Below are positions 5,895 to 40,722 of a stretch of DNA of 64,000 bases, one piece after another. The notes under the pieces were generated by a model. The model worked only from the letters and a program-made list of their open reading frames with translations, did not search any database and had not been told where the DNA came from. Location: assembly GCA_001824825.1 (NCBI GenBank), contig MHTK01000005.1, forward strand, positions 16,173-80,172, given 5' to 3'. The first letter of the stretch is position 1. Each line of letters starts with the position of its first letter. This DNA is from Candidatus Vogelbacteria bacterium RIFOXYD1_FULL_46_19 (GTDB taxonomy: Bacteria; Patescibacteriota; Minisyncoccia; Phycocordibacterales; XYD1-FULL-46-19). The position numbers were made by a program, and so were the translations under genes.

Positions 5895-6491
5895 ATGTTT
5901 GATCCTAATCTCCTCACTGTTCTCTTCATTGGCCGTTCTGGCTGTGGCAAGGGTACACAATCGGGCCTCTTGGTTAAGTATTTGGAGGCGGGTAATCGGG
6001 CCCTGGCCCCTGTTTTATATATTGAGACCGGCGCTCGATTTCGGGATTTTATTAAGCGTGATTCTTTTTCCAGCCAGTTATCCCAAAAAATAATGGCCAC
6101 TGATGATTTGCAGCCATCTTTTTTGTCGACTTGGATGTGGGCCAACGAGTTTATTGAAAAAATGGAAGAGGGCCAACATTTAGTGGTAGACGGCTCACCG
6201 AGGAAGCCGGCGGAGGCTCTGACTATGGCTTCGGCCCTTAGGTTTTATGGTCGACATCGTCCGGCTGTCGTCCACTTGAATGTGTCGCGGGAGTGGTCAC
6301 ATAAGCATTTACTGGCCCGGGGCCGGGCTGATGACGACGTGGCGGGTATTGAAAAAAGACTGAACTGGTTTGATGAGGAAGTGGTACCCACTATAGATTT
6401 TTTTAAGAATGATCCCAACTTTCTATTTTTAGACATTGATGGCGAGCGGCCGATCGAGGTGATTCATCAGGATATAATTGCCCGTTTATGA
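5895..6491 (+). CDS. adk: Adenylate kinase (divergent)
   Basis: A P-loop (IGRSGCGKGTQ), an LVDGSPRK-like NMP-binding motif, and a position between secY and map, as in the spc operon. Confidence 0.7.
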   Translation: MFDPNLLTVLFIGRSGCGKGTQSGLLVKYLEAGNRALAPVLYIETGARFRDFIKRDSFSSQLSQKIMATDDLQPSFLSTWMWANEFIEKMEEGQHLVVDGSPRKPAEALTMASALRFYGRHRPAVVHLNVSREWSHKHLLARGRADDDVAGIEKRLNWFDEEVVPTIDFFKNDPNFLFLDIDGERPIEVIHQDIIARL

Positions 6492-8621: not shown

Positions 8622-9998
8622 ATGAAACCTAAAGCAACGATTACTTTTTATGGCGGGGCTGGCTCGGTGACCGGAGCCAATTTTTTACTAGAAACAGAAT
8701 CAAACGGAAGTTCAGAGCGGATTTTGATTGATTGCGGGTTGATTCAGGGTGGGGCTATTTATGAAAAGTTAAACTTTGAGCCTTTTGCTTACGATCCGGG
8801 GAGCATTGATGCTGTATTCATTACTCACGGTCACCTCGACCACGTGGGTCGAATTGGTAAGCTGATCCAGGATGGTTTTAAGGGTAAGATTTACTCTACA
8901 CCACCCACTAAGGAAATTGCCGAACTGATTATGCTGGATAGCTTGGGGGTGATGGAAAAAGAGTTGCGGGGCTCCGATCGACCCCCGCTATATGATGAAT
9001 CTGATGTGGCGACCGCGATGGGCATGTGGGAAACCGCACCCTATCACGAGCCGGTTACAGTGGGTGGGGTGCAAGCGGTGTTTCGGGATGCCGGGCACGT
9101 TTTAGGGTCAGCGATGATAGAATTTACAGTGGCCGGGCGGAAAATTTTGTTTTCCGGGGACCTGGGTAATTCACCGGCGCCGCTTCTACCGCCGACGGAA
9201 AAAATTACGGATATTGATTACTTGCTGATGGAAAGTGTTTATGGCGACCGCAATCACGAGCAAAATGAAGAGCGGTTACACCTATTACGAGGCGTGATTA
9301 AAGATACGATGAATAAAGGGGGGACGCTGATGATCCCAGCTTTTTCGGTGGAGCGAACTCAACAACTGTTGTTTGAAATTGAAAATATGATGGAAAGATC
9401 TGAAATATCCTTGGTGCCGGTGTTTGTCGACTCGCCACTGGCCATTAAAGTGACGCGGATCTATAAAAAGTACTACTATTATTTTAATAGTAATGTGCGG
9501 GAGGTTCACCGACTAGGGGACGGAGTATTTCATTTTCCCCAGCTTCATTTCACTGAAAGTACAGAGTTATCCAAAGCTATTAAGTATCAGAGTCCGCGCA
9601 AGATTGTGATCGCTGGCTCGGGTATGTCCAACGGGGGGCGTATTTTACATCACGAAAAAGAGTATTTACCCGATCCTAATAGCACCTTACTGCTCGCTGG
9701 TTACCAGGCGGTGGGTAGTTTGGGCCGTATTTTGCAGGATGGGGCCAAGAAAGTAAAAATTATGGGTACTTGGGTGCCGGTGCGAGCCACAGTAGTGACT
9801 ATTACCGGTTTTTCCGCCCACAAGGGATCGGATGATCTAGTGGAGTTTGTGGCTGATAGCGAGCGAACCCTTAAAAAAGTGATGGTGGCGATGGGTGAAC
9901 CGAAGTCATCGTTGTTTTTAGTCCAGCGTTTGCGAGGTGAGTTGGGGCTTCAGGCAGTGGCCCCAACAGGTGGCGAGAAAATTGTGTTGGAGTTGTAG
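8622..9998 (+). CDS. Metallo-beta-lactamase-fold hydrolase, beta-CASP/RNA-metabolising type (RNase J / CPSF-like)
   Basis: HGHLDHVG is the HxHxDH motif. The approximately 450-aa architecture, with a C-terminal domain after the MBL core, is typical of beta-CASP ribonucleases. Confidence 0.65.
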   Translation: MKPKATITFYGGAGSVTGANFLLETESNGSSERILIDCGLIQGGAIYEKLNFEPFAYDPGSIDAVFITHGHLDHVGRIGKLIQDGFKGKIYSTPPTKEIAELIMLDSLGVMEKELRGSDRPPLYDESDVATAMGMWETAPYHEPVTVGGVQAVFRDAGHVLGSAMIEFTVAGRKILFSGDLGNSPAPLLPPTEKITDIDYLLMESVYGDRNHEQNEERLHLLRGVIKDTMNKGGTLMIPAFSVERTQQLLFEIENMMERSEISLVPVFVDSPLAIKVTRIYKKYYYYFNSNVREVHRLGDGVFHFPQLHFTESTELSKAIKYQSPRKIVIAGSGMSNGGRILHHEKEYLPDPNSTLLLAGYQAVGSLGRILQDGAKKVKIMGTWVPVRATVVTITGFSAHKGSDDLVEFVADSERTLKKVMVAMGEPKSSLFLVQRLRGELGLQAVAPTGGEKIVLEL

Positions 9999-10049
9999 GA
10001 GAGGGGGAAAGGGTGTATGAAGTATATAAGTATGTTGTATAGAATATGG

Positions 10050-10087
10050 AAAATCCCCTTTGGTGCGGAAGCACCAAAGGGGATTTT
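10050..10087. terminator. Bidirectional terminator (perfect 17-bp stem aaaatcccctttggtgc / gcaccaaaggggatttt)
   Basis: It lies between the convergent MBL gene (+) and rplT (−). A/T runs on both sides of the stem serve both strands. Confidence 0.7.
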
Positions 10088-10119
10088 ATACACGATACTC
10101 TATACTGTATACAATATAC

Positions 10120-10464
10120 TTATTTTACGTATTCCACGACTTGCTTAAAAGTGTCTGGATTGTTTTCCGCGAGGTCGGCGAGGATCTTGCGATCAAGCTC
10201 GACGTTCTTCTTTTTCAAGAGGCCGATGAGTTGACTGTAAGATAGGCCTAAGGCGCGAACAGCGGCGCCGATTTTAATATTCCACAAGCGACGAAAGTCG
10301 TTTTTCTTATCGCGCCTATGCGCAAAAGCGTGAGTGCCAGCGTGCAGAAAGGCTGTTTTAGCTTCGCGCTTTTTAGTACTGCGGCCGAATCGAAAGCCTT
10401 TGACTCGGGCTAGGATGTTGCGGCGTCTCTTTAATGTAGTTTTTCCTCCTTTAACTCTAGGCAT
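10120..10464 (-). CDS. rplT: 50S ribosomal protein L20
   Basis: MPRVKGGKTTLKRRRNILARVKGFRFGRSTKKREAKTAFLHAGTHAFAHRRDKKNDFRRLWNIKIGAAVR matches L20. Confidence 0.9.
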   Translation of the reverse strand: MPRVKGGKTTLKRRRNILARVKGFRFGRSTKKREAKTAFLHAGTHAFAHRRDKKNDFRRLWNIKIGAAVRALGLSYSQLIGLLKKKNVELDRKILADLAENNPDTFKQVVEYVK

Positions 10465-10475
10465 GATTATTGGGG

Positions 10476-10676
10476 TTAATTACTTCTGGTTTTTTGACCG
10501 CTAAGCATTCGACTGGCAGTTTTGGCACTAATGGCGAAGGTTTTCATCCCTTTGCCGGCCAGCTGGGTGGAACGACTTTCTTTGGCGTTAAAATGGTTCT
10601 TGCCCGGTTTGCGACCAAGCACTTTTTTATTACGTGTCACCTTTAGTCGCTTGGTGAATGATTTGTTAGTTTTCAT
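10476..10676 (-). CDS. rpmI: 50S ribosomal protein L35
   Basis: A 66-aa basic protein (MKTNKSFTKRLKVTRNKKV…) lying between infC and rplT. Confidence 0.85.
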   Translation of the reverse strand: MKTNKSFTKRLKVTRNKKVLGRKPGKNHFNAKESRSTQLAGKGMKTFAISAKTASRMLSGQKTRSN

Positions 10677-10694
10677 ATTATATAAATTGAATGT

Positions 10695-11270
10695 TTAAAC
10701 TGTTGGAGCCGAACTGGTAGGTTTACCTGGAATTTCTTCTCCCTCTTTACTTTTCACACTTTTGTCTCTTTCGACAATGAGATAAGGGCCTTTGGGGCCT
10801 CGTTTGGCCGGTTCGGCAATGCGATAGTCGACCGGGATCAAGCGCAGTAGTCGCTCCAAGCGATCATTTAAAAAGTTTTGGTCAAAGTATTTAGCTCGGC
10901 CTGAGACAAAGAGCTCGATTTTGACGCGGTGACCTTCGGTAAGCCAGGTGCCCGCCCGGCGGGCTTTAAGCTCTAGATCGTGATCCCCGGTGCCAATTTT
11001 TACCTGCAGTGATTTGGTTTCCGTCGATTTGCTGCCGGCCTTAGCGGCCTTAGCTTTACGCTTTTCCATATACTGCCACTTGCCGTAGTCAATGATCTTG
11101 GCAATCGGTGGGTTGGCTTGCGGGGTGATTTCAATTAAATCTAAGCCCAGCTCCTCAGCCTTCTTTAAAGCCTCTTCCTTACTCATGACGCCCAAATTGG
11201 TGCCCTCCTCGTCGATAATTCGGAGTTCTTTGGCAGTAATTTGATGATTTAGGCGGGTGAATTTACTCAA
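10695..11270 (-). CDS. infC: Translation initiation factor IF-3
   Basis: …ELRIIDEEGTNLGVMSKEEALKKAEELGLDLIEI…LQVKIGTGDHDLELKARRA… matches IF-3, at the head of the infC-rpmI-rplT operon. Confidence 0.9.
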   Translation of the reverse strand: MSKFTRLNHQITAKELRIIDEEGTNLGVMSKEEALKKAEELGLDLIEITPQANPPIAKIIDYGKWQYMEKRKAKAAKAGSKSTETKSLQVKIGTGDHDLELKARRAGTWLTEGHRVKIELFVSGRAKYFDQNFLNDRLERLLRLIPVDYRIAEPAKRGPKGPYLIVERDKSVKSKEGEEIPGKPTSSAPTV

Positions 11271-11388
11271 AATTGACTTTATATTAACCCACTGATGACC
11301 GCTCTTAAAGTTTAAGCGCCCGAGTGGATATGCGGGTAATAGTAAACAAAAATAGCCTAAAAGTCAATAAGTCTGTTAGAATAGCTCT

Positions 11389-11835
11389 ATGACTGGCAGT
11401 GTGAGAAATAAAAAGGCCGGCTTTAACTATGAGCTCCTAGAGCGGTATACGGCTGGGGTGAAGCTCTTGGGGACGGAAGTGAAGTCGGTCAAAGGTGGCC
11501 AAGGCTCTCTAGAGGGGGCTTACGTGATCCTCCGAGGGAGGGAGGCTTTTTTGGTGGGGGCCACTATCCCGCCTTTTCAAGGGGGTAATGCTCCTGAGGG
11601 CTACGAGCCGAGCCGTCCTCGCAAGCTCTTACTCCAGAAACGGGAACTCGAAGAGCTGGAAACGGCCTCCCAGACCAAGGGTTTGACAATACTGCCTATT
11701 TCAGTGTATAATAAAGGAAGGCTGGTGAAGGTAGATATTGCCATTGGGCGCGGTAAAAAGAAGTTTGATAAGCGCGAAACCATCAAAAAACGCGATGTCA
11801 AAAGAGACATTGACCGTACATTGAAAAATAGTTAG
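11389..11835 (+). CDS. smpB: SsrA-binding protein SmpB
   Basis: …NKKAGFNYELLERYTAGVKLLGTEVKSVKGG…AYVILRGREAFLVGATIPPF… matches SmpB. The tmRNA gene follows immediately. Confidence 0.9.
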   Translation: MTGSVRNKKAGFNYELLERYTAGVKLLGTEVKSVKGGQGSLEGAYVILRGREAFLVGATIPPFQGGNAPEGYEPSRPRKLLLQKRELEELETASQTKGLTILPISVYNKGRLVKVDIAIGRGKKKFDKRETIKKRDVKRDIDRTLKNS

Positions 11836-11900
11836 AAAGCCCGGTCATTCGGCTAAAGCATATTTACTATCGAACATATTTCTTTCTAAACATGTTTTAG

Positions 11901-12278
11901 GGGGATGATCGGCCTTGCCATTGATATGTTAGTTTATTCGTGCGTCCCGAGGGTGCTGGTCGCCTCGTAAATCACACCGGCAAAACTTAAGTGCAAAAAA
12001 CAGCACTGGTGCGGTGGTTTCACCGTACTCTCCAGCTTTCGCTTTAGCGTAATAAGCTGGTGTCGGACGAGCTTTTTCCTAACTGGCTCGCTCCCGGCAT
12101 AATAACCGTTGGGATAGGCAACTGGACTTGTTTCGCCCAGACGCCGAAACTTAGAAACTTTAACGCTTTGGGATTTTGCTCGTTTTATACCTAAAGCGTC
12201 GAGAACTTAAAACCAGCTACGGATGTAGACTCGCTTAAACCATATCTCTGCACGGGGGTTCGATTCCCCCCATCTCCA
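11901..12278 (+). ncRNA. ssrA: tmRNA (ssrA), standard one-piece; CCA not encoded
   Basis: The 5' acceptor GGGGAUG pairs with the 3' CAUCUCC, followed by discriminator A. The T-arm is GGGGG UUCGAUU CCCCC. An internal tag reading frame GCA AAA AAC … GCU UUA GCG UAA UAA (11993-12055) gives the tag AKNSTGAVVSPYSPAFALA with a double stop. The gene sits immediately downstream of smpB and is about 378 nt long. Confidence 0.85.
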
Positions 12279-12285
12279 CAATTAC

Positions 12286-12319
12286 AAAAATCGCTCACAT
12301 TTATATGTGAGCGATTTTT
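12286..12319 (+). terminator. Intrinsic terminator after ssrA (aaaaatcgctcacat ttat atgtgagcgattttt)
   Basis: A perfect 15-bp stem with a U-tract. It is embedded in a larger palindrome that includes the tmRNA acceptor 3' strand (catctccacaa / ttgtggagatg). Confidence 0.7.
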
Positions 12320-12321
12320 GT

Positions 12322-12560
12322 TTGTGGAGATGAGCAAAGCGCCTGCGCGCTTTGCGTGGGGGAATCGAAAAGGCTGAACATATCGCAGTGAGCCGAGCAC
12401 CAGAGAAGGCATTGGTGCTTGGCGAAACGAGATGTGAAGCCTGTACCGTTCATGTAATGAAAGATTCCCCGGCCGTGGGGGAATCGAAAGACCCCGCCCT
12501 GTGCACAGGGCGGGATTGGGGTAGAGAGATTACCATTGTCTCTACAAACAAAATGCCCTT
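12322..12560. other. Structured non-coding region downstream of ssrA containing two inverted (mirror) copies of the tmRNA 3' end
   Basis: 12324-12370 reads gtggagatg + [agcaaagcgcctgcgcgctttgcgt hairpin] + gggggaatcgaa. This equals the reverse complement of the tmRNA 3' end, gggggttcgattccccccatctccac, with a 23-nt perfect hairpin inserted at the T-stem/acceptor junction. A second copy, gtgggggaatcgaaa, is at 12475-12489. Further hairpins are cgccctgtgcacagggcg and gtagaga…tctctac. Confidence 0.6.
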
Positions 12561-12606
12561 GTAAAACAAGATTTTTTCCTATTGTGGAAGTTCGTTTTAG
12601 GGACTA

Positions 12607-12637
12607 TTGACTTATTTGAATATTATGATATTATATA
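12607..12637 (+). promoter_or_regulatory. Putative promoter TTGACT-16/17-TATTAT/ATTATA for small secreted protein gene
   Basis: ttgact tatttgaatattatgat attata lies about 50 nt upstream of an SD (AAAGGAA) and the ATG at 12686. Confidence 0.4.
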
Positions 12638-12685
12638 AAAGGAGTTTGAAAAGTTTGTTTTTCCAACCACGAAAGGAATGCGACC

Positions 12686-13027
12686 ATGAAGACGATGAAT
12701 ATTTTTATGTTTTTGGTGGCGGTGACATTGATGGCGATTGGTTTTCATTTGGGTTCCATCAGGAACAGTCTCAGTCGGATGTCTGAACAGGAATCCACTC
12801 TGGTCTACGAGGAGGTAGTTGAGGTGGTCGGATTGGCCACTTATCCCTTCGATGGCCTCGGCGCCACGGTGGGCTATCTCGTGAAAAGTCACGATGGCCT
12901 CAAAGTCATTCCCCTCAGCCAAGGATTGATGGGGAAGGAACCGGTTGAAATCGCACGCCCGCAATTTTTGACGGTGTTGCATTCGTCGACGGGCGAAATG
13001 CACTACAACGCTCTTCTCGTTGATTAG
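12686..13027 (+). CDS. Small secreted protein (signal peptide), hypothetical
   Basis: It has its own promoter and SD, and a clean intrinsic terminator directly downstream. The N-terminus MKTMNIFMFLVAVTLMAIGF is signal-peptide-like. The overlapping antisense 161-aa ORF is judged spurious. Confidence 0.55.
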   Translation: MKTMNIFMFLVAVTLMAIGFHLGSIRNSLSRMSEQESTLVYEEVVEVVGLATYPFDGLGATVGYLVKSHDGLKVIPLSQGLMGKEPVEIARPQFLTVLHSSTGEMHYNALLVD

Positions 13028-13046
13028 TCGTCTTGGTTGTCCCCGC

Positions 13047-13088
13047 CCCACTCGAAAGCTTCGCTTTCGAGTGGGGCTTTCTGTTTTT
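13047..13088 (+). terminator. Intrinsic terminator (ccccactcgaaagc ttcg ctttcgagtgggg ctttctgttttt)
   Basis: A perfect 13-bp stem followed by a T-tract. Confidence 0.7.
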
Positions 13089-13093
13089 AATAT

Positions 13094-13135
13094 TGATTCA
13101 ACTCCCACCCACCCTGTGACCCCCCTTAAACTATT
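13094..13135 (+). repeat. Direct repeat copy 1 (tgattcaactcccaccc[acc]ctgtgaccccccttaaactatt)
   Basis: A roughly 40-nt near-identical copy is at 14253-14290. Both copies sit about 15 nt after an intrinsic terminator. Together they flank a 1.1-kb segment of higher GC and different codon usage. Confidence 0.6.
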
Positions 13136-13248
13136 TTACTACCCATAAACCAAGTTATTTTTATCGGATTCAAGCGAACCAGTTAACAAATCTGCGTTAT
13201 TATGGTAGAGATATATAAGAACTACAACCGAGAAGGGGGGTGAAGCTA

Positions 13249-13404
13249 GTGGCAAGAAAGTGCGGAATCAGGAGAAGAACCCGTCTCCGTCGATTGATGA
13301 GAGGTGAGACTGTTCCCACCAAAAAGCAAAGACGAGACCAGAATCGCAGTCGTAGGGATCATCTTAGTATTACTTCAAGTCTTCGGAGTATATACTGGGG
13401 ATGA
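13249..13404 (+). CDS. Candidate small, highly basic protein (51 aa; MARKCGIRRRTRLRRLMRGETVPTKKQRRDQNRSRRDHLSITSSLRSIYWG)
   Basis: A strong SD (GAAGGGGGG) sits 8 nt upstream of the GTG start. It is below the ORF-track size cutoff and has no assignable homology. Confidence 0.25.
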   Translation: MARKCGIRRRTRLRRLMRGETVPTKKQRRDQNRSRRDHLSITSSLRSIYWG

Positions 13405-13599
13405 CTGAGGTCCCGAATCTCGCCTTGTGAAGTTGTGGCTCTTGTAGCGATGCTGGAGCCACTTTTTAGTTCCTAACTGGTGACCCCAAAAAACAAAGCT
13501 ATTGACTAAAGTTGTATATTGTGCTAGGTTCTTAGTCAGAATGGATCATGGTGGTCCGCGTTAGTGTCGTCTGTAAATGAAGCAGAAAGGGGAATTACA

Positions 13600-14166
13600 G
13601 TGGAGAATCTATTGCGTTGGGCCAGTGAGGGAGTCCAGAACTTCCAAAGTGAACAAGTCAATTGGGATGAAATCGTCGATGCGCCGATTGGAGAAGGTGA
13701 AATCGTTATCGGCGAAGTCACTGACCCCGATGTCCAGAAACTCTATGGCTTTCTTGCGAAACATGGCGACGAGATGGCCGAACGGCTCAAAGGCATCCAT
13801 GAGCGGATGCTTACGACCGTGATTCAAGACGACCTTGACCACCAGGACGACGATCCCAACGAAGACGCAAGTCTTCGGCACGCCCGTCATTGCGTTTCTT
13901 GTCGAGCACAAGCCGAGATGCAGACCGAAGAAGCGCGACACCAGCTTCTTCACGACTTGTTCTGGGGAAGCATCTCGACAAGTCTCACGATCGAAGATCG
14001 AGTTCGTGCCAACAAGGGCAACGGACTGGGGCTTCGCCAGGGCTGGAAGATCGTCATCATGAAGGAAAGCGTGGAAGATGAGGCGTCCAAGTCGCTGGGG
14101 AACGCTTTGGGGGGTATCGTTCTGGCGACGCGAATTGCGGGGTTAGGACGTTTCGTAAGTCTCTAA
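13600..14166 (+). CDS. Hypothetical protein, compositionally atypical (GC3-rich codons: gac/gtc/atc/ggc/ctg)
   Basis: The long ORF is 13564..14166. The preferred start is the GTG at 13600, 6 nt after AAAGGGGA. An intrinsic terminator follows. No recognisable motifs. Confidence 0.5.
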   Translation: MENLLRWASEGVQNFQSEQVNWDEIVDAPIGEGEIVIGEVTDPDVQKLYGFLAKHGDEMAERLKGIHERMLTTVIQDDLDHQDDDPNEDASLRHARHCVSCRAQAEMQTEEARHQLLHDLFWGSISTSLTIEDRVRANKGNGLGLRQGWKIVIMKESVEDEASKSLGNALGGIVLATRIAGLGRFVSL

Positions 14167-14191
14167 CCCCTCTCTCTCACTTGATCTACAA

Positions 14192-14230
14192 GCCCCGACG
14201 TCATCAGACGCCGGGGCTTATTTTGTATTT
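14192..14230 (+). terminator. Intrinsic terminator (gccccg acgtcatcagacgc cggggc ttattttgtattt)
   Basis: A GC stem followed by a T-rich tract, directly after the stop at 14166. Confidence 0.6.
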
Positions 14231-14252
14231 CCAATCGCGTTTTCTTTTACTC

Positions 14253-14290
14253 TGATTCAACTCCCACCCTGTGACCTCCTACCACTATTC
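14253..14290 (+). repeat. Direct repeat copy 2 (tgattcaactcccaccctgtgacctcctaccactattc)
   Basis: Matches copy 1 at 13094-13135. It has 17 + 8 exact nucleotides with a 3-nt indel. Confidence 0.6.
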
Positions 14291-14471
14291 AATTACGTAA
14301 AAACAAAGCTTTCCTCTCCACTACCAGCCCCCACAATCGCCGCTCTCGCCTCAAATACCCAGGGAAATAGGTGGTTCCAACTTTTCGTGATTAAGTCCAC
14401 AAAAATAAGAAGCGCGACGACTATATTTTTGTAGGATGCCGAAGTGTACTCACTTTGGCGCCACATCAATA

Positions 14472-14506
14472 ACAAAAACCTGAGAACTAGTTCTCAGGTT
14501 TTTGTT
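14472..14506. terminator. Perfect 15-bp palindromic hairpin with flanking A/T tracts (aaaaacctgagaact agt tctcaggttttt)
   Basis: Bidirectional-terminator geometry, but no confident gene ends at it. It may terminate an unannotated RNA. Confidence 0.45.
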
Positions 14507-14648
14507 ATGCTCAAATTTTTACCACCATTTCCTAACTTTCCGATAAATATCAAACCCAGATATTCATCCTTGAGAGATTGTGTCCACTGTGTTAGGAATT
14601 ATTTTAGAGTCATCCAGGTGTCCCGATTTTTAGAGAGAGGAGTAGTTT

Positions 14649-15152
14649 ATGAGGAAATCAGCGATCTTGTACTTAGCTGGGGGTCTTTTTAACGCCGGTG
14701 AGCGGATTCACAATTTATATCTGGAGGTGGCACTTGGAGTTTTGGGGCATGCAATCGTTTTACCGCAGCGCGAAGCGCTGCGGTTTCAGAATCCCCAGAC
14801 TTGCCTGTTTGACACCGGAGCAATTTCTAGAGATTGTCGTCGGGCCGCCGAAAATCCGAACAGTATTTTGGTGGGTTGTGTGGACGGTCCCGATGTCGAC
14901 AGTGGAACCGCTGTGGAGTATGCCTATGCGATGGCCAAAACCGGTCGAGCAATAATATATCGCACTGATTTTCGTACTAGTCTGGAGCACGAAGTGGGGG
15001 TAAACGCGATGCTCCGGGGGCTTGGTACGGAATTCATCTATTTGCCTTGTTTTATAACCGAGCTTGAAGAGATCGAGCTGTATTACAGGCACTTGGCCAG
15101 GAAAATTGACGAGGCGGCTCAGCGAATTCTGGCTGTGGAGAGAGTTGATTGA
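14649..15152 (+). CDS. Nucleoside 2-deoxyribosyltransferase-like / SLOG-LOG-fold protein
   Basis: YLAGGLFNAGER is an N-terminal motif, and GxVDGPDVDSGTAVEYAYAMAKTGRAII is the characteristic D.GT..E.G.A block of the Nuc_deoxyrib_tr family. GGAG sits 7 nt upstream. Confidence 0.6.
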   Translation: MRKSAILYLAGGLFNAGERIHNLYLEVALGVLGHAIVLPQREALRFQNPQTCLFDTGAISRDCRRAAENPNSILVGCVDGPDVDSGTAVEYAYAMAKTGRAIIYRTDFRTSLEHEVGVNAMLRGLGTEFIYLPCFITELEEIELYYRHLARKIDEAAQRILAVERVD

Positions 15153-15167
15153 TTTCGCCTGGTTGTA

Positions 15168-15205
15168 CCCCGCTGAAACTTTAGTTTCGGCGGGTTTTTA
15201 TATTT
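15168..15205 (+). terminator. Intrinsic terminator (ccccgctgaaact tt agtttcggcggg ttttta)
   Basis: A stem followed by a U-tract, directly after the stop. Confidence 0.6.
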
Positions 15206-15294
15206 TAATTAAACTTCGAACCTTAATTTTTAGTAAAAACTCGGTTTAACCTTGCCTAGAATTACAAGAGGAAAAAACGTATAATCAGATTATT

Positions 15295-15585
15295 ATGATG
15301 CTCAGTAAAAATATTATCCGGCCAGCTTTGTTTACCGCTCTAGTTCTGATTATCCCTTTAGCGGCGATGCAGTTTAGTGAGGAAGTGAACTGGAACTTGG
15401 CTGATTTTGTAATTGGTGGGGTACTGCTATTGGCTGTGGGGTTAGGGTATGAGCTTTTGTTTAAAAAGGTGAAAAAATATAAATATCGCTGGGCTCTCGC
15501 TATTGGTCTCGGCCTACTCTTCATTATGGTGTGGGCGGAGCTGGCGGTGGGTATTTTCAATATTCCAGGTATTTCGGGGAGTTGA
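15295..15585 (+). CDS. Small membrane protein (3 TM), hypothetical
   Basis: A 96-aa hydrophobic ORF with three predicted TM helices. Confidence 0.45.
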   Translation: MMLSKNIIRPALFTALVLIIPLAAMQFSEEVNWNLADFVIGGVLLLAVGLGYELLFKKVKKYKYRWALAIGLGLLFIMVWAELAVGIFNIPGISGS

Positions 15586-15640
15586 GTAAGTTTAATTTCT
15601 GTTTATTATGATCAATATTCTAACTTAAGTTGGAACACTT

Positions 15641-16180
15641 ATGGCTTACTATTACTCACCTTTTCGTAATAAATATTCCAAGAAACCGTCTGATTCAGGT
15701 TGTCCTTTTTGTAATACAGAGATGATGGAGAAGCAGTCTGTTAAATATTCCGACGGCACTATTATTGAAAACAAAACCTATCGGTGGGTGGTAAATATGT
15801 TCCCTAAGTTTGAAGGTCACACTATGGTAGTGCCCAAGCGCCATGTGACTAAAATCGGGTCAGAGACCACTCAAGAGATAAAAGATCGGGAAGAGCTAGT
15901 CGCTCTTGCCGCTAAGACTTTAAATGAAACTTACAATACCGATGGCGTGGAAGTTTTTCTTCAGACGGGGTTAAACTCGGAATCATCAATAAAACATCTT
16001 CATTGGCACGTGGTGTCATCACAGGCCAGTGACCCATTGCGCGGGTTTGACAAGTTGGGTCATTTTTTTACAATACAGGAGGATAATCCTAAGATCATAA
16101 TATTTCCGGTGCCGATTAAGAAAGCCAAGACTCAACTTTTAAAGGCCTTAGCTAAAACGCTGGGTCGGAAAGGACGGTAA
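15641..16180 (+). CDS. HIT-family (histidine triad) nucleotide hydrolase/transferase
   Basis: An N-terminal CPFC zinc motif (compare CIFC in bacterial Hit), PKRHV, and the histidine triad HLHWHVV. Confidence 0.7.
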   Translation: MAYYYSPFRNKYSKKPSDSGCPFCNTEMMEKQSVKYSDGTIIENKTYRWVVNMFPKFEGHTMVVPKRHVTKIGSETTQEIKDREELVALAAKTLNETYNTDGVEVFLQTGLNSESSIKHLHWHVVSSQASDPLRGFDKLGHFFTIQEDNPKIIIFPVPIKKAKTQLLKALAKTLGRKGR

Positions 16181-16182
16181 CA

Positions 16183-16917
16183 GTGAAAGCAGTGGTGATG
16201 GCGGGCGGGAAGGGGTCGCGTCTGATTTCCGCTAAAGGCCAAGTTAATAAGCACGTTTTGCCGGTTTATGATCGGCCGATGATCGAGCATGTGATTCGGA
16301 CGTTGGTAGCTGGCGGAGTCACTGAGGTGTTGGTTTTGCTGAACTGGTTTTATCCGCAGACTGTGATGGAGGTACTCGAAGATGGCACTCGGCTTAATTG
16401 TGACATCTATTACCGCTATCTGCGGGAAGTCGATGGACCTGGTCGGCAGTTGTACTTGGCCGAGAAGTGGGTGGGGGGAGAAGACTTCATCATTATGTTA
16501 GGGGATAGTCTCTATCTTCACCCACTTGATTTTCGCCACCTAACGGCACCGCATCTGTGGACCATGCCATCTGAGAATCTGGACGATGATCTGTCGAAGT
16601 ACGGTCAAGTTATGGTCGACGGTGATAAGGTGACGAAGCTTCGGGAAAAGGTTAGTTATCGTTTTGGTGAGTTAATCACGACGGCTACTTGGCTTTTTCC
16701 TCCCTCTGTTTTTGACCTGGCGCGCGGGCTGGATGCTGAAACAAAAGGCGAGGTTCACGTCGCTATGCTGTCTCAGGGCTTTATCGATCGCGGCGAAATG
16801 ACTCATACCACTTTGCCGGTCGGTTCCTATATTGACCTGGGGACACCAGATGCCTTGCTACGTGGAGCAAATATGCTTCAAGCCCGAGCGAAGGTGGCAC
16901 AGTTGATCACCGGTTAA
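16183..16917 (+). CDS. Sugar-phosphate nucleotidyltransferase (NTP_transferase family)
   Basis: The N-terminus MKAVVMAGGKGSRL… is the G-x-G-x-R-L signature of RmlA/GalU/GlmU-type nucleotidyltransferases. It starts 3 nt after the HIT gene, so the two are probably co-transcribed. Confidence 0.65.
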   Translation: MKAVVMAGGKGSRLISAKGQVNKHVLPVYDRPMIEHVIRTLVAGGVTEVLVLLNWFYPQTVMEVLEDGTRLNCDIYYRYLREVDGPGRQLYLAEKWVGGEDFIIMLGDSLYLHPLDFRHLTAPHLWTMPSENLDDDLSKYGQVMVDGDKVTKLREKVSYRFGELITTATWLFPPSVFDLARGLDAETKGEVHVAMLSQGFIDRGEMTHTTLPVGSYIDLGTPDALLRGANMLQARAKVAQLITG

Positions 16918-17016
16918 ACGAGCGACCAATCGTACTGTTGGAGCTATAAGTCTATCTTTCGGGATAGGCTTTTTTGTTAAGGCGACAAAAAAACCAACTC
17001 TGCTATAATTAATTAT

Positions 17017-17565
17017 ATGTCCCAAGTCTTATTCCAAGAATCACCAGTGGCGAAATTTCTGCTCTCGGATACCAGGGCGGCTTTCTTATGGCTCCCGATC
17101 CGTCTCTATGTGGGCTGGGCCTGGTTTACCGCTGGCTGGAGCAAACTAAACAATCCGGCTTGGGTGGGCAATGACATGGGTCACTCACTCACTGGTTTTA
17201 TTACCAAGGCGGTGGGAAAGGCAACCGGTGAGCATCCGGATGTACCACTGTGGTATGCCAATTTTTTGCAGACTGTGGTATTAGATAATGTCGAGACTTG
17301 GTCGGTGGTAGTAGCGACGGGGGAGTTTTTGGTTGGCCTCGGACTCTTATTGGGGCTATTTACGGGGGTAGCGGCTTTCTTTGGTTTAATGATGAATTTC
17401 AACTTTATGTTGGCTGGCTCGCTTAGTACTAACCCGATCCTGCTTGTCTTAAGTGTGGGGCTGGTTTTGGCGTGGAAAGTAGTGGGGCAGCTGGGGCTAG
17501 ATCGTTTTGTTCTACCGGCCTTGGGTACCCCTTGGCAGCCAGGGCGCTGGTTTAGGCAGAGTTGA
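17017..17565 (+). CDS. DoxX-like integral membrane protein (tentative)
   Basis: Four TM helices and a W-rich sequence (…LYVGWAWFTAGWSKL…). Family assignment is weak. Confidence 0.4.
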   Translation: MSQVLFQESPVAKFLLSDTRAAFLWLPIRLYVGWAWFTAGWSKLNNPAWVGNDMGHSLTGFITKAVGKATGEHPDVPLWYANFLQTVVLDNVETWSVVVATGEFLVGLGLLLGLFTGVAAFFGLMMNFNFMLAGSLSTNPILLVLSVGLVLAWKVVGQLGLDRFVLPALGTPWQPGRWFRQS

Positions 17566-17775
17566 CCCCGTGAAATAATTTACCCCAATTTTTTACTTTT
17601 TGTCATCATCCTGAGGTGGTATAAGTTTTCAGTGGTAATTTAAGAGTCTATATTTCACAGGGTTGACCCCGTGAAATAATTTACCCCAAGGTCTTTATTT
17701 AAATATAATTATTCTGAAGTGATATTTGGTCTCAATGAGGATTTCAGATTTCCTATTTCACAGAGTTGACAAAAA
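17551..17775. repeat. Degenerate tandem repeat, ~100-bp unit × 2.3, each unit bounded by palindromic motif tatttcacag(g/a)gttgac(cccgtgaaata)
   Basis: Unit starts are at 17553, 17655 and 17757. TTTCAC-N-GTGAAA dyads are centred on TTGAC. The internal regions are similar (atcctgaggtggtata vs attctgaagtgatatt). Confidence 0.6.
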
Positions 17776-17894
17776 ATTTAAAATCATTTATGTTATAGAC
17801 TGCAAGTTTAAGGAAGTTGTTTGGTTGGGCTGTGGCTCCTTAGACTTGCCCCAAACGGTGCGTCAGGCCCCATCCTGACGCACCTATTTTTTTT
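17766..17894 (+). ncRNA. Candidate small RNA: promoter (TTGACA-17-TATGTT) → ~95-nt transcript → intrinsic terminator (ggtgcgtcagg cccca tcctgacgcacc + T9)
   Basis: The -35 is at 17766-17771 and the -10 at 17789-17794. The terminator spans 17857-17894. No ORF longer than 10 codons lies between them. Confidence 0.4.
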
Positions 17895-18035
17895 TGATAA
17901 ACAGTGGATAAATGATTGCACCTTCAGGATGAGCTTGGTATAGTTTAAATAGTACCGGCGGTAACTTGATCACTATTTGATCGGGTTGCAGGGGCCGCCG
18001 GCTTGGGTCCTTGTCTTACTTAGGAGGAATTGCCT

Positions 18036-18464
18036 ATGAAAGTTCTCCTCGTGGTGGGGTTAGTAGCCTTACTAGCCTTCGCCTTGGTGTTAGCGATTGG
18101 CCCTCCGGCCCTCGCTGGCACTCAAGCTGTACCGGTGGTGGTAGCCAAAGTTGCCCCGCTGGGAGCATGGGCATATTCCTCTATTGAGGAAGGGGAGACG
18201 CGGATTTTCCCTTCAGATTCATTGCTTGTACTGGCGATTTTTCAGCACGGATCAGCCGAGCACTTGTCGGTGGAAATTTCGACCAGTAGCGGTAGCGACT
18301 TTATCTATTCGTTTGGGGCCTCGGCTCTGTTGTCGGCTGACTACTCCGAGAAAGTAGAGGTGACGGCGCCCGGCGCCAGTCGTAGAGCGTTGGCAGTCGT
18401 TGAGTTAGACTGCCGTTCGGCTCTCGTTCTTGAAAGGAGGGTCATGGCGCGAGCCCTGGCCTGA
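18036..18464 (+). CDS. Small secreted Ala/Val-rich protein, hypothetical
   Basis: AGGAGG sits 6 nt upstream of the ATG. The N-terminus is signal-peptide-like (MKVLLVVGLVALLAFALVLAIGPPALA). A terminator follows. Confidence 0.55.
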   Translation: MKVLLVVGLVALLAFALVLAIGPPALAGTQAVPVVVAKVAPLGAWAYSSIEEGETRIFPSDSLLVLAIFQHGSAEHLSVEISTSSGSDFIYSFGASALLSADYSEKVEVTAPGASRRALAVVELDCRSALVLERRVMARALA

Positions 18465-18491
18465 TCTAGCTCTTAAGTATTGTTGACTTTA

Positions 18492-18528
18492 ACCCCCTGA
18501 GGCTTAGCTTCAGGGGGTTGTCTTTTTA
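18492..18528. terminator. Bidirectional terminator (aaccccctgaggc ttagc ttcagggggtt gtcttttt)
   Basis: It lies between the convergent 18036 gene (+) and the anti-sigma gene (−). Confidence 0.6.
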
Positions 18529-18532
18529 AATA

Positions 18533-19618
18533 TTAAAATTTAAGTAGCGGTAGGAGTGAGGGATTTTCAAGAAGAGAGGTAGCGGCCGGTAAAATCTGCG
18601 GTGGTCCCTTGGTGACAGGTTTTAGAGGGTCATTATCGGAGGTCAGATTTTCTTTTGAGTTATCTTTGGTAACTATAGTTTCGGAGGGACCTTTAGAAGA
18701 AGGATTTGTAGAATTAGTGGTGAGATTGGCTCCTTCTTCAGACTCCGCTGGTTCAAACAAAGAAGTTGGTCGAAAGGGTGCTCCATCTTGATGTTCTGAT
18801 TGTGGAGTTTGGTTAGGCTTAAGGACATTTAACTGTCCGTTCACTAGATCAATCATTTTAAGTGGAGCTTTATCGCTTTGGGCGGTTTCTAGCATCTGTT
18901 TGTAGTTTTCTAAGTCTGCGATAAAGTCGGCTGGTACGTCAGCTTTAGCTGGTTGGTTTGTAATCAGTTTACGATTACTGGCCGGTGGTGGGGTAAAAGA
19001 CTCTTTCGACCTTAAGGCGGTGTCGGACTTCTTGGTCACTTCAAGGGTAGTTGCCATCGCTCGGGTTTCTTCGGCTAGAGCGGTAACACCCTCCTTCTCA
19101 TTAGTGGTGACACTAGCGGCGGACGCCGACTCGACCTGATAAAGAAAAGCCACGTGGTCACTAAAAAGCTCAACCAGGGTGTTTTCGAACTCGGGAGTCA
19201 GCTGGTTATTTTGGGCCAGTATTACCGCTTCGGCTAATCGCCGTTTAGCTTGAGTTAGGTGCCATGTATTAGATTTTTCGCCGGCCGGAGTTATGGCACT
19301 GATGATATTTTCATTAACATCAGTCTTAATGGGGTATAAAAAATCTCCGGGCACAGTGCCTTCAGCCGCGTAAGAAACCCCGGATAGGGCAAATAAAAAA
19401 ACCGCGAGGCCAGCTAAAACTGGTTTGGGTGGCAGGAAGCGGCCTAGAATTAGGCGCAAGTCCATATAGCCACCACTATTTTTTTGATCGGAAGAATTAA
19501 AACCGGCTCGGGTATAATTTTTTTCTAAAATAGCCTCTAGGATCCTAGCTTTAATGTTTGGTTCTAGCTGGATCTTTTTAAGGGAGGCAAGGTGTTTTTG
19601 AATCTCGGCGTCGTTCAT
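18533..19618 (-). CDS. Putative membrane-anchored anti-sigma factor (DUF5667-like extracytoplasmic domain)
   Basis: It lies immediately downstream of, and probably co-transcribed with, the ECF sigma gene. It has a single TM after a 60-aa cytoplasmic N-terminus, a DFLYPIK…TWHLTQAKRRLAEAVIL block, and a low-complexity S/T/P-rich C-terminus. Confidence 0.5.
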   Translation of the reverse strand: MNDAEIQKHLASLKKIQLEPNIKARILEAILEKNYTRAGFNSSDQKNSGGYMDLRLILGRFLPPKPVLAGLAVFLFALSGVSYAAEGTVPGDFLYPIKTDVNENIISAITPAGEKSNTWHLTQAKRRLAEAVILAQNNQLTPEFENTLVELFSDHVAFLYQVESASAASVTTNEKEGVTALAEETRAMATTLEVTKKSDTALRSKESFTPPPASNRKLITNQPAKADVPADFIADLENYKQMLETAQSDKAPLKMIDLVNGQLNVLKPNQTPQSEHQDGAPFRPTSLFEPAESEEGANLTTNSTNPSSKGPSETIVTKDNSKENLTSDNDPLKPVTKGPPQILPAATSLLENPSLLPLLKF

Positions 19619-19716
19619 TTTTGTTGTGGTTATCTTTATGGGTTTTAATAGACTTAAAAACTTTAAAAGAAATATATTAATAAGCTGTTAATAACTATAC
19701 CTCAGATAAGCTTGGT

Positions 19717-20220
19717 TTAAGTGGTGGCTTGGCCGTTTTTGAGCAACTCTCGCAGTTGGGTCATGCCACGATTTATCCTGACAGACACATTATTCTCAGT
19801 CTCACCGATAATACTGGCAATATCCTTAGGTCCTAAATCCTCAACAAATTTCATCAGGAGCACCTGTTTGTATTTCTCATCGAGCTGTTCTAAATATTTA
19901 TACACTTGCTCGATTTCCGCTCCCGCCTCAATAGCGGCGTGACCCCGATCTGAAGGGGAAAAGCCGTCGTCAAGTAACCGGTCTAAAGAAAAGGATTTCT
20001 TTTTACGATAGGTATCAATTAAAAGATTATGGGCAATCGTAAACAAAAATGTCTTTTCGTTTTCAATCAATTGGCCGTTGGTGACGCATTTCCAGACGCG
20101 AGTAAAAGTTTCTTGGACCAAGTCTTTGGCCTGCTCCTTATCCGATACTCTAAAATAGCAGTATCGGAAGATGGCATCCGCATAAGATTCGTACATAGCG
20201 GTAAATTGATTTTCGGTCAT
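19717..20220 (-). CDS. RNA polymerase sigma factor, ECF (sigma-70 family group 4)
   Basis: A 167-aa protein with region 2 (…FRYCYFRVSDKEQAKDLVQETFTRVW…) and region 4 (…DIASIIGETENNVSVRINRGMTQLRELL). Confidence 0.85.
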   Translation of the reverse strand: MTENQFTAMYESYADAIFRYCYFRVSDKEQAKDLVQETFTRVWKCVTNGQLIENEKTFLFTIAHNLLIDTYRKKKSFSLDRLLDDGFSPSDRGHAAIEAGAEIEQVYKYLEQLDEKYKQVLLMKFVEDLGPKDIASIIGETENNVSVRINRGMTQLRELLKNGQATT

Positions 20221-20487
20221 AGATATATTAAAACAATTTGACGACCGATCAGAGCTATACTTAAAAGACGGACTGGAGGTGCTTTTCTTACATACGGCCG
20301 AGTGGAATCTAAGGAAGCCCTCAGACGGTCGCGGGTAATCGCTAATTATAACATTTTAAGATATTAGCCGCAAGACCAGCCTTCTAGGCTGAAGACCTTA
20401 CCAAGCTGGGCTTTGACAGCTGGGAGGCGCAGGGTAGAATTAATAGTAGAGGCCGATATTAGTAGTCTGATAATTAAAATAAGTATT

Positions 20488-20739
20488 ATGGATAACACTA
20501 CGATAAACATGCCGGAGTCATCCGCTCCGCGCAATGATGATAGTGGTTTTGGGGTAGTAATTGGAGTAATTATTGCCGTTTTGATCGTTATTATCCTGTT
20601 TATGTTTGGTATTTCTCGAGACACTAATGTGGAAGTTCCAGCCGAGGAAGGGAATATTGGAGAGGTGGAAATTGATGTTAATTTGCCAACCTCCCCAGCT
20701 GACGGTGGAGCTGAGACGCCGGTAGTTCCGGCCCAGTAG
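20488..20739 (+). CDS. Small single-pass membrane protein, hypothetical
   Basis: An 84-aa protein starting at MDNTTINMPESS with one TM helix (GVVIGVIIAVLIVIILFMF). It is preferred over the low-complexity antisense ORF 20364..20747. A terminator follows. Confidence 0.35.
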   Translation: MDNTTINMPESSAPRNDDSGFGVVIGVIIAVLIVIILFMFGISRDTNVEVPAEEGNIGEVEIDVNLPTSPADGGAETPVVPAQ

Positions 20740-40719: not shown

Positions 40720-40722
40720 ATT

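What the first reader, a model, noticed from the sequence alone, without database searches (positions are those of the whole stretch)
12600..14520. Compositionally distinct ~2-kb islet downstream of ssrA bounded by a 40-nt direct repeat
From about 12600 onward the sequence changes character. Codon usage is GC3-rich (gac/gtc/atc/ggc) in ORF 13600..14166, and there are unusually crisp promoter/SD/terminator cassettes.

A ~40-nt direct repeat (tgattcaactcccaccc…ctgtgacc…actatt) occurs at 13094 and 14253. Each copy sits about 15 nt after an intrinsic terminator, and together they bracket a 1.1-kb unit.

Contents are a signal-peptide protein (12686..13027), a possible 51-aa arginine-rich protein with a strong SD (13249..13404), and a 188-aa protein of unknown function.

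tmRNA genes are known integration hot spots. The repeat could be a recombination site (cassette boundary) or a duplicated regulatory motif. None of the encoded proteins is assignable, so this may be cargo of an uncharacterised small mobile element.
Basis: partly seen in the sequence, partly recalled or inferred. Interest (0 to 1): 0.55.

Follow-up and report, generated by a model that had tools for sequence, protein, structure and literature searches.

The report
Repeat-flanked small gene insert near ssrA
A 1.16-kb stretch carrying two small genes of unknown function, flanked by a real ~40-base direct repeat and with the oddest base composition in the window, sits downstream of the tmRNA gene of a Parcubacteria (CPR) genome; it looks like an old, now fixed insertion, not a demonstrable mobile element.

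Summary
The repeat is real: 17 nt exact, a 4-nt indel, then 14 nt exact, with about 70 nt alignable (local score 43 against 22.6±2.4 in shuffles). Each copy follows an intrinsic terminator. G+C content is ordinary, but k-mer usage is not. The kilobase between the two copies (13251-14250) is the strongest tetranucleotide outlier of the 64-kb window (z 5.1), and GC3 is high.

No recombinase was found among the genes examined. There is no direct copy of the tmRNA 3' end, no second locus with the repeat and no strain lacking the unit. The 188-aa protein is not an orphan: it belongs to an unannotated CPR family (44 representatives) that sits in core chromosomal neighbourhoods elsewhere.

The whole 12.3-17.0 kb stretch after ssrA is lineage-specific. 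smpB-ssrA is inverted relative to relatives.

Best reading (confidence about 0.4): a single-crossover (Campbell-type) insertion of a small foreign unit at a shared 40-70-nt sequence, now fixed.

Separately, I found an apparently undescribed structured ~130-nt element family placed 45-82 nt downstream of tRNA and tmRNA genes across Parcubacteria. It is flanked by inverted and direct copies of the host gene's T-arm. That is the more novel result.

The parts
11901..12279 (+). ssrA (tmRNA), tag AKNSTGAVVSPYSPAFALA; smpB is upstream at 11389-11835
   Evidence: ARAGORN; Rfam RF00023, 128.5 bits; SmpB Pfam hit
12271..12332 (.). Long interrupted palindrome: the tmRNA acceptor 3' strand, the terminator hairpin, and the reverse complement of the acceptor strand (GTGGAGATG)
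   Evidence: Inverted repeats I2 and I4. Logan contigs break here.
12322..12560 (+). ssrA-proximal module. It holds inverted copies of the tmRNA T-arm (12358-12369, 12477-12488), GC hairpins (12333-12356, 12491-12516) and GTTCATGTAATGAAAGA (12448-12464). A twin lies downstream of tRNA-Ser on the minus strand (36727-36852).
   Evidence: Atypical by Markov likelihood, z -3.5.
12607..12634 (+). Sigma-70-like promoter of the 113-aa gene (TTGACT-16-TATTAT, TG-extended). It shares CTATTGACT with the 188-aa gene's promoter.
   Evidence: CTATTGACT occurs exactly only at 12604 and 13499 in the window.
12686..13027 (+). 113-aa ORF with a hydrophobic N-terminus; known only from this species
   Evidence: GC3 0.632.
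13045..13088 (+). Intrinsic terminator (15-bp stem plus T-run)
   Evidence: (I5)
13094..13134 (+). Direct repeat, copy 1 (alignable zone 13084-13154)
13249..13404 (+). 51-aa arginine-rich ORF (Shine-Dalgarno AAGGGGGG at 13233-13240). Coding status is unproven and it has no homologue.
13435..13467 (+). Terminator-like hairpin plus T5 after the 51-aa ORF
   Evidence: Sequence; fold
13477..13500 (+). Possible partial third copy (CTGGTGACCCC ... AAAAACAAAGCT); weak evidence
   Evidence: D15. A 12-mer match alone is near chance level.
13502..13530 (+). Inferred promoter of the 188-aa gene (TTGACT-17-TAGGTT)
   Evidence: Read from the sequence. Not flagged by the consensus scan.
13600..14166 (+). 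188-aa protein (alternative start at 13564, 200 aa). It belongs to an unannotated CPR family with CxxC, LFW and G.GIR.GWKIV motifs. The predicted fold is a long helical hairpin.
   Evidence: The most atypical coding sequence of the window.
14190..14232 (+). Intrinsic terminator of the 188-aa gene
   Evidence: I22; sequence
14253..14289 (+). Direct repeat, copy 2 (alignable zone 14244-14308)
14290..14508 (+). Non-coding unit that ends in a perfect 20+20-nt palindromic (bidirectional) terminator at 14469-14508. A possible small RNA, but untested.
   Evidence: I1. Fold z -4.5, driven mostly by the hairpins. Only sub-threshold Rfam hits.
14649..15152 (+). Nucleoside 2-deoxyribosyltransferase-like gene. 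Composition is typical; it is the first gene after the unit.
   Evidence: Pfam PF05014, 30.5 bits

Best explanation
The segment from about 13.1 to 14.25 kb holds the 51-aa ORF and the 188-aa gene, each with its own terminator. I read it as a piece of DNA of different origin that entered a pre-existing intergenic site by one reciprocal crossover. The crossover took place at a 40-70-nt sequence shared by the incoming, probably circular, molecule and the chromosome (Campbell-type insertion).

Such an event leaves the shared sequence once on each side of the insert, as a direct repeat. Identity is strongest in the core and decays outward, which is what is seen.

The crossover could have been catalysed by a recombinase encoded elsewhere, or by RecA acting on DNA taken up through the type IV pilus system that the window encodes.

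The insert now carries no mobility gene and is fixed in every sampled population. It sits inside a larger lineage-specific, rearranged stretch (12.3-17.0 kb) downstream of ssrA.

Shown: the repeat, its position, the compositional boundaries, the absence of recombinase genes and the lineage specificity. Inferred: the foreign origin, the single-crossover mechanism and the route of entry. The function of the two products is unknown. The 188-aa protein is a helical, CxxC-bearing member of a CPR-wide family.
For: - The repeat is far beyond chance: score 43 against a maximum of 34 in 300 shuffles. It consists of exact 17-nt and 14-nt blocks.
- The two copies are in direct orientation, 1159 nt apart. 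Similarity extends to the right of the core only.
- The kilobase between them is the top tetranucleotide outlier (z 5.15, next best 3.0).
- The Markov-likelihood deviant zone (about 13150-14300) matches the repeat-bounded unit, while the flanking 113-aa gene and the Ndt-like gene are typical.
- GC3 and codon usage lie in the upper tail.
- None of these genes lies within 10 kb of smpB in 80 relatives.
- smpB-ssrA is inverted relative to the conserved IF3/L20 and DoxX/FtsH flanks.
- tmRNA 3'-end fragments lie just downstream, showing that this neighbourhood recombines.
- A type IV pilus cluster lies at 38986-50147.
- The assembly is not an artefact: independent assemblies from several samples are identical.
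Against: - No empty site, no second occupied site and no donor sequence was found.
- No recombinase was found among the genes examined.
- Part of the compositional signal could come from the acidic amino-acid composition of the 188-aa protein and from the low coding density of the region. Synonymous codon usage alone is only mildly atypical (z -1.3).
- Homologues of the 188-aa protein sit in ordinary core contexts in other CPR genomes, so the gene is not typical mobile cargo.
- Each repeat copy also lies exactly where a promoter or leader of the next unit would be, which fits a regulatory duplication equally well.
Confidence: 0.4

Rival explanations
1. The repeat is a duplicated regulatory element: a promoter-upstream region, an operator or a 5' leader. 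It stands at the head of two short terminator-bounded transcription units (13094-13467 and 14253-14508) and gives them common control. The units are native, not inserted.
For: - Both copies start 16-33 nt after the preceding terminator, in the same orientation, exactly where the next unit's control region should be.
- The similarity runs on into ACTATT, which resembles the CTATTGACT extended -35 shared by the promoters of the 113-aa and 188-aa genes. CTATTGACT has only two exact copies in the window.
- In copy 1, the C-rich tract (ACCCCCC) is predicted to pair with the Shine-Dalgarno sequence of the 51-aa ORF.
- A partial third copy precedes the 188-aa promoter (D15).
Against: - No sigma-70-like promoter is detected within either copy.
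- The 4-nt indel changes the spacing inside the element.
- The pairing with the Shine-Dalgarno sequence is not reproduced for copy 2, and the unit-1 fold is no better than shuffles (z -0.07).
- There are only two copies in 64 kb.
- This reading does not explain why composition deviates only between the copies.
Confidence: 0.25
2. The repeat is a neutral relic. A ~70-nt intergenic segment was copied locally, by slippage, template switching or gene conversion between neighbouring spacers. The compositional anomaly is a property of the 188-aa gene (acidic protein, high GC3) and of the low coding density, not of foreign origin.
For: - Only two copies exist, and they are local.
- Similarity is short and decays quickly.
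- Synonymous codon usage is only mildly atypical.
- Other non-coding structured stretches of the window are just as atypical by Markov likelihood: 5601-5900, 12150-12650 and 24051.
- The region is 53-55% non-coding.
Against: - Windows with a similar non-coding fraction elsewhere (56001, 10501) have average tetranucleotide distance. The correlation between non-coding fraction and distance is only 0.28.
- The coincidence of the deviant zone with the repeat boundaries would be accidental.
Confidence: 0.2
3. The whole stretch from ssrA to DoxX (12.3-17.0 kb) is the decayed remnant of one or more classical ssrA-targeting integrative islands whose integrase and attR have been lost. The 40-nt repeat is an internal feature of that remnant.
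For: - The entire stretch is absent from 80 relatives' loci.
- Relatives carry different cargo after ssrA, for example a restriction-modification system in L008.
- Copies of tmRNA 3'-end fragments lie downstream of ssrA in 10 of 46 loci.
- It is established knowledge that tmRNA genes are integration sites (Islander database, PMC4383910).
Against: - There is no direct ssrA 3' fragment anywhere in the window. The fragments that are present are inverted and belong to a recurring structured module, not to an island end.
- No integrase was found.
- The Ndt-like, HIT and NTP-transferase genes have typical composition.
- The relatives are distant (SmpB 54-76% identical), so lost synteny is weak evidence.
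Confidence: 0.1

Closest known systems
Genomic islands integrated in tRNA/tmRNA genes (Islander-type islands; the ssrA islands of Dehalococcoides, PMC2764846; PMC4383910)
   Same: It lies next to ssrA, in a lineage-variable region, has deviant composition and is flanked by a direct repeat.
   Different: The repeat is not a displaced fragment of ssrA and does not abut ssrA. There is no integrase. The unit is only 1.16 kb. No excision or presence/absence evidence exists.
Integron gene cassettes
   Same: The size is about 1 kb, the content is one or two small genes, and a repeated boundary sequence follows each unit.
   Different: The boundary repeat has no imperfect-palindrome (attC-like) structure. 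No IntI gene was found. The units carry their own promoters and terminators, unlike typical promoterless cassettes.
Campbell-type insertion of circular DNA by a single crossover at a short homologous or att sequence
   Same: The shared sequence forms a direct repeat on both sides of a compositionally foreign insert. Identity is strongest in a core and decays outward.
   Different: The donor molecule, the enzyme and the empty site are all unobserved.
Repeated intergenic regulatory or REP-like elements
   Same: It is a short intergenic repeat placed just after terminators.
   Different: There are only two copies in 64 kb, it has no palindromic structure, and it has no detectable promoter consensus.

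Membership tests
tRNA/tmRNA-gene integrative island | Bounded by the intact target gene on one side and a displaced direct copy of its 3' end on the other | tested here: not met
   There is no second direct copy of the ssrA 3' end with up to 3 mismatches in 19-23 nt. Only inverted 12-nt copies exist, at 12358 and 12477.
tRNA/tmRNA-gene integrative island | Integrase (tyrosine or serine recombinase) gene inside the island | tested here: not met
   Pfam annotation of all called genes in 1389-21835 shows none. The islet ORFs have no Pfam, NCBIfam, PHROG or PADLOC hit. Twenty further ORFs show none.
tRNA/tmRNA-gene integrative island | Compositional deviation from the host genome | tested here: met
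   Tetranucleotide z 5.15 for 13251-14250; Markov likelihood z down to -3.7; G+C itself is not deviant.
tRNA/tmRNA-gene integrative island | Presence/absence polymorphism among strains or close relatives | tested here: inconclusive
   All same-species contigs are at least 99.99% identical with the same arrangement. The nearest other genomes are too distant (SmpB at most 76% identical).
Integron cassette array | attC site (imperfect inverted repeat able to fold) at each cassette boundary | tested here: not met
   No inverted repeat lies within or across the repeat copies. The copies are predicted to be largely unpaired.
Integron cassette array | Adjacent intI gene and attI | tested here: not met
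   No recombinase lies within 10 kb on either side.
Genome-wide intergenic repeat or regulatory motif | Many copies at equivalent positions across the genome | tested here: inconclusive
   There are only 2 copies in the 64-kb window. The rest of the genome was not available. Collection scans gave only chance 17-mer hits.
Parcubacterial tRNA-3'-end-linked structured module (found here) | Match to covariance model R1, or the conserved core GAAAGNCGGAG ... CGAGNCGGGGTCG ... GTGACC | tested here: not met
   cmsearch with filters off finds only 24151-24307 (62.5 bits). Nothing significant lies in 12600-14520.

The most novel reading that the evidence does not exclude
The repeat (TTCAACTCCCACC...) may be a tRNA T-arm-like attachment sequence. 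It can be compared with the tRNA-Met T-arm TTCAATCCCCACC at 56273. On that reading, the 1.16-kb unit is a recombinase-less gene cassette moved in trans by the same unknown machinery that has placed T-loop-bounded inverted and direct copies of tRNA and tmRNA 3' ends, together with a conserved structured ~130-nt module, downstream of about a third of the tRNA-Ile, tRNA-Ser and tmRNA genes in Parcubacteria. That would be a new kind of trans-mobilised cassette system in CPR bacteria.
Probability: 0.08. Interest if true: 0.8.

Novelty: new member of a known kind. Interest (0 to 1): 0.4.

Why it matters
CPR/Patescibacteria genomes are small and poorly understood, and how they gain genes is largely unknown. 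A repeat-flanked, recombinase-free insertion next to ssrA would be a concrete example of gene gain by single-crossover integration. It also pinpoints an uncharacterised but widespread CPR protein family (the 188-aa protein).

The by-product matters more. A structured element with strong covariation sits at a fixed distance behind tRNA and tmRNA genes, and its ends copy the host gene's T-arm. It is absent from Rfam 15. It could be either a new non-coding RNA class tied to tRNA 3' ends or the footprint of a new recombination system.

Tried and rejected
- **ssrA att duplication.** I searched the window for direct copies of the tmRNA 3' end and found none.
- **attC-like fold of the repeat.** There are no inverted arms.
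- **ECF-type or sigma-70 promoter inside the repeat.** I considered this by eye. The 4-nt indel breaks any fixed -35/-10 spacing, and the consensus scan flags nothing there.
- **Known RNA families.** Rfam at gathering and at E<=10 finds only tmRNA and sub-threshold hairpin matches.
- **Other copies of the repeat.** There was 1 viral and 52 metagenome 17-mer hits. None continues into TGTGACC, so all are chance. The organism's own contigs appear not to be in that metagenome collection.
- **Protein families for the three ORFs.** Pfam, NCBIfam, PADLOC and PHROGs find nothing. A PDB sequence profile finds nothing better than E 0.19. Foldseek of a confident AlphaFold model (pLDDT 84) against the PDB gives a best E of 1.4.
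- **Phage or plasmid origin.** No protein or DNA match was found.
- **Paralogy between the units.** blastn-short and tblastx show nothing beyond the repeat.
- **Membership of the repeat in the tRNA-linked module family.** Rejected by the covariance-model search.
- **Derivation of the repeat from a tRNA 3' end.** This is only a lead: 2 mismatches in 14 to tRNA-Met. It cannot be tested without the complete genome.
- **Phage attP origin of the modules.** One viral-collection contig (L146) carries modules, but its genes are ordinary bacterial genes.
- **Literature searches.** None gave a description of the modules.
Full report
**What the window is**

ARAGORN and Rfam place a tmRNA gene at 11901-12279 (+), directly after smpB at 11389-11835. 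The 113-aa ORF is 100% identical to a protein that NCBI names from 'Candidatus Vogelbacteria bacterium RIFOXYD1_FULL_46_19'. SmpB relatives are all Parcubacteria/Patescibacteria. Contigs from several independent assemblies (ENA, JGI, Logan) are at least 99.99% identical to the window over up to 20 kb. The sequence is therefore not an assembly artefact. The sampled population is essentially clonal.

**The repeat**

- 13094-13110 and 14253-14269 are identical (TGATTCAACTCCCACCC). After a 4-nt indel, CCCACCCTGTGACC follows in both copies.
- A gapped local alignment pairs 13084-13154 with 14244-14308. The score is 43, against 22.6±2.4 (maximum 34) in 300 shuffles.
- A 17-mer by itself is not exceptional in 64 kb: 10 of 60 simulations reach at least 17 nt. 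The in-register second block makes chance negligible.
- Copy 1 begins 16 nt after the stem of the terminator at 13045-13077. Copy 2 begins 33 nt after the terminator at 14190-14219.
- A possible partial third copy (13477-13500) precedes the promoter of the 188-aa gene, but its statistical support is weak (D15).
- There are no further copies in the window.
- Exact 17-mer scans of the viral and metagenome collections returned only chance hits; none continues into TGTGACC.

**Composition**

G+C (0.46-0.50) is unremarkable, and my first codon-usage pass showed no outlier. K-mer statistics changed the picture.

- The 2-kb window 12501-14500 ranks first of 125 by tetranucleotide distance (z 4.3).
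- At 1-kb resolution the peak is 13251-14250 (z 5.15; the next best elsewhere is 3.0).
- A third-order Markov likelihood shows two atypical zones: 12150-12650, and about 13150-14300. The 113-aa gene and everything from about 14250 onward are typical.
- GC3 is 0.632 (z 2.45) for the 113-aa gene and 0.593 (z 1.8) for the 188-aa gene. Their codon likelihoods rank 9th and 6th lowest of 66.
- The second atypical zone coincides, within about 100 nt, with the unit bracketed by the repeat.

Two caveats apply. The region is about 55% non-coding, and the 188-aa protein is acidic, which feeds GAAG/ACGA/GAGA tetramers. However, other windows with a similar non-coding fraction have average distance.

**Gene content**

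- The 113-aa ORF is known only from this species.
- The 51-aa ORF has no homologue in the 86 fetched loci beyond this species' own contigs.
- The 188-aa ORF looked like an orphan in the word-indexed search. The exhaustive HMMER search found 44 representatives (E<=1e-3) of 150-190 aa at about 25-39% identity.
- Their alignment (A1) shows conserved GE.VIGE, HDP..CP.C, LFW and G.GIR.GWKIV motifs, with two near-invariant Cys and two Trp.
- No member matches Pfam or PHROGs, and the profile has no PDB relative.
- An AlphaFold model is confident (pLDDT 84). It shows a long helical hairpin with small beta elements and has no Foldseek match in the PDB.
- Homologues lie among housekeeping genes elsewhere: between a radical-SAM gene and LeuRS, and between the ribosomal S9 cluster and GrpE-DnaK. 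None has a phage or plasmid match.
- The gene is therefore a CPR 'dark-matter' gene, not recognisable mobile cargo.

**Mobility hallmarks**

- No integrase or transposase lies in 1389-21835 or among 20 further ORFs.
- There is no direct copy of the ssrA 3' end.
- The repeat has no attC-like fold.
- There is no presence/absence polymorphism. Short Logan contigs end at the palindromes 12271-12332 and 14469-14508, which is an assembly effect.

**Neighbourhood**

None of 80 relatives' smpB-ssrA loci (SmpB 54-76% identical) contains the 113-aa, 51-aa, 188-aa, Ndt-like or 96-aa genes within 10 kb.

In relatives the order is FtsH(-) [DoxX(-)] | smpB(+) ssrA(+) | variable DNA | IF3 L35 L20(+) beta-CASP(-). 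In the window it is beta-CASP(+) L20 L35 IF3(-) | smpB(+) ssrA(+) | 4.7 kb | DoxX(+) ... FtsH(+). The smpB-ssrA segment is therefore inverted relative to both conserved flanks. Relatives carry unrelated cargo after ssrA, for example a restriction-modification pair and an amidase in L008. The stretch after ssrA is thus a variable, rearranged region. These relatives are distant, however, so this is weak evidence for recent mobility.

**Best explanation and rivals**

I favour a single-crossover (Campbell-type) insertion of a small foreign unit at a shared 40-70-nt sequence, with confidence about 0.4. It is the only reading that explains the direct orientation, the one-sided decay of similarity and the coincidence of the compositional boundaries with the repeat. 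The enzyme is unknown: it could be a recombinase acting in trans, or RecA on DNA taken up by the cell. The window encodes a type IV pilus system.

The main rival (0.25) is a duplicated regulatory leader or promoter-upstream element. Both copies stand where the next unit's control region should be. The similarity runs into ACTATT, which resembles the CTATTGACT shared exactly, and only, by the promoters of the 113-aa and 188-aa genes.

A neutral local duplication (0.2) and a decayed classical ssrA island (0.1) remain possible.

**By-product: a tRNA-linked structured element family**

Immediately after ssrA there is a recurring arrangement:
- its terminator;
- the reverse complement of the acceptor 3' strand;
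- a GC hairpin;
- the reverse complement of the T-arm;
- about 80 nt ending in GTTCATGTAATGAAAGA;
- a short direct T-stem copy.

The same architecture, with 17 nt identical, follows tRNA-Ser on the minus strand at 36727-36852.

tRNA-Ile(UAU) is followed by a related module that ends in a 19-nt exact direct copy of the tRNA 3' end (24278-24296). The closest relative, L007, has the same layout after its own ssrA, and there the copies match that species' own tmRNA sequence.

Across 140 tRNA and tmRNA genes with full flanks in the Parcubacteria loci:
- 23 have an inverted copy of at least 10 nt of their 3' end within 350 nt downstream, against 6 upstream;
- 25 have a direct copy downstream, against 2 upstream.

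Downstream sequences of different genes in different species share 60-110-nt blocks at 80-93% identity. Iterated nhmmer finds 31 modules. Nearly all start 45-82 nt after a tRNA-like gene, on the same strand.

The 24-sequence alignment (A4) has a conserved core, GAAAG-N-CGGAG / hairpin / CGAG-N'-CGGGGTCG / hairpin / GTGACC.
- N and N' covary (AU 9, CG 9, GC 3, UA 2).
- The two core helices are 95-97% paired, with compensatory changes at 10 of 12 pairs. They include G-U pairs on the tRNA strand.
- Slid controls give 31-43% pairing.
- The closing helix, formed by the host-derived flanks, is 70% paired.
- The junctions between host-derived sequence and module sequence fall in the T-loop.

Rfam 15 has no match, and four literature searches found no description.

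Covariance model R1 finds one member in the window (24151-24307, 62.5 bits) and none in 12600-14520. The finding's repeat is therefore not part of this family.

What the family is remains open. It could be a structured 3'-trailer RNA that mimics an acceptor/T-arm minihelix. It could be a folded single-strand att-like site. It could be a guide-like scaffold. None of these was tested.

**Verdict**

The mobile-element interpretation is plausible but unproven. The finding itself is of moderate interest, and the neighbouring tRNA-linked element family deserves its own follow-up.

Noticed in passing
window 24151-24307 (+); loci L007 9741-9896, L068 181-323, L017 7738-7882 and 7912-8051, L023 2220-2358 and 11247-11393, and about 20 more: A conserved structured module of about 130 nt starts 45-82 nt downstream of tRNA-Ile, tRNA-Ser, tRNA-Arg, tRNA-Ala and tmRNA genes, on the same strand, in many Parcubacteria. 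Its core is GAAAGNCGGAG, a hairpin, CGAGN'CGGGGTCG, a hairpin, then GTGACC. It is flanked by the reverse complement of the host T-arm on the 5' side and a direct copy of the host T-loop to 3' end on the 3' side. Covariation is strong. It has no Rfam match, and four literature searches found no description of it.
   Followed up: partly
window 12322-12475 (+) and 36727-36852 (-): Two copies of a second module type follow the tmRNA gene and tRNA-Ser. They share the host-derived flanks and the hairpin but have a different interior, which includes an identical GTTCATGTAATGAAAGA. Only the 5' part has relatives in other genomes.
   Followed up: partly
window 8622-23240 compared with L008, L007, L013, L015 and L018: smpB-ssrA is inverted relative to both conserved flanks (IF3/L35/L20/beta-CASP on one side, DoxX...FtsH on the other) when compared with all informative relatives.
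   Followed up: partly
window 61926-61960 and 62049-62083: A 35-nt exact direct repeat, the longest in the window. It copies the upstream region plus the first 19 nt of tRNA-Thr(CGU) 123 nt further upstream.
   Followed up: no
window 17561-17589 and 17662-17690: A 29-nt exact direct repeat spaced 101 nt apart, immediately after the DoxX-like gene. This is at the far edge of the lineage-specific stretch.
   Followed up: no
window 13600-14166; proteins P0004-P0045: The 188-aa protein defines an unannotated family of small CPR proteins (150-190 aa) with a CxxC motif and two conserved Trp. The AlphaFold model is confident and has no PDB fold match.
   Followed up: partly
window 24033-24106 and many loci: A tRNA-Ile with anticodon UAU is conserved near FtsH across these Parcubacteria. 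It is the tRNA most often followed by the modules.
   Followed up: no
window 46083-46116 and 46631-46664; 38986-50147: Two adjacent small genes (131 and 133 aa) share a 34-nt identical stretch near their 5' ends. They lie inside a type IV pilus cluster (PilM/N/O, two T2SSE ATPases, PilC, prepilin peptidase, an N-methyl pilin) and are probably duplicated pilins.
   Followed up: no
window 29714-32986 and 33316-36150: Two very large adjacent ORFs (1090 and 944 aa) share several exact 16-23-nt blocks at matching offsets, so they appear to be tandem paralogues.
   Followed up: no
L008 10469-10837 and 14367-15967: In this relative, a 122-aa ORF lies between smpB and ssrA. A DNA-methyltransferase-like ORF and a neighbouring ORF (a possible restriction-modification pair, judged by eye from the translations) lie downstream of ssrA.
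   Followed up: no
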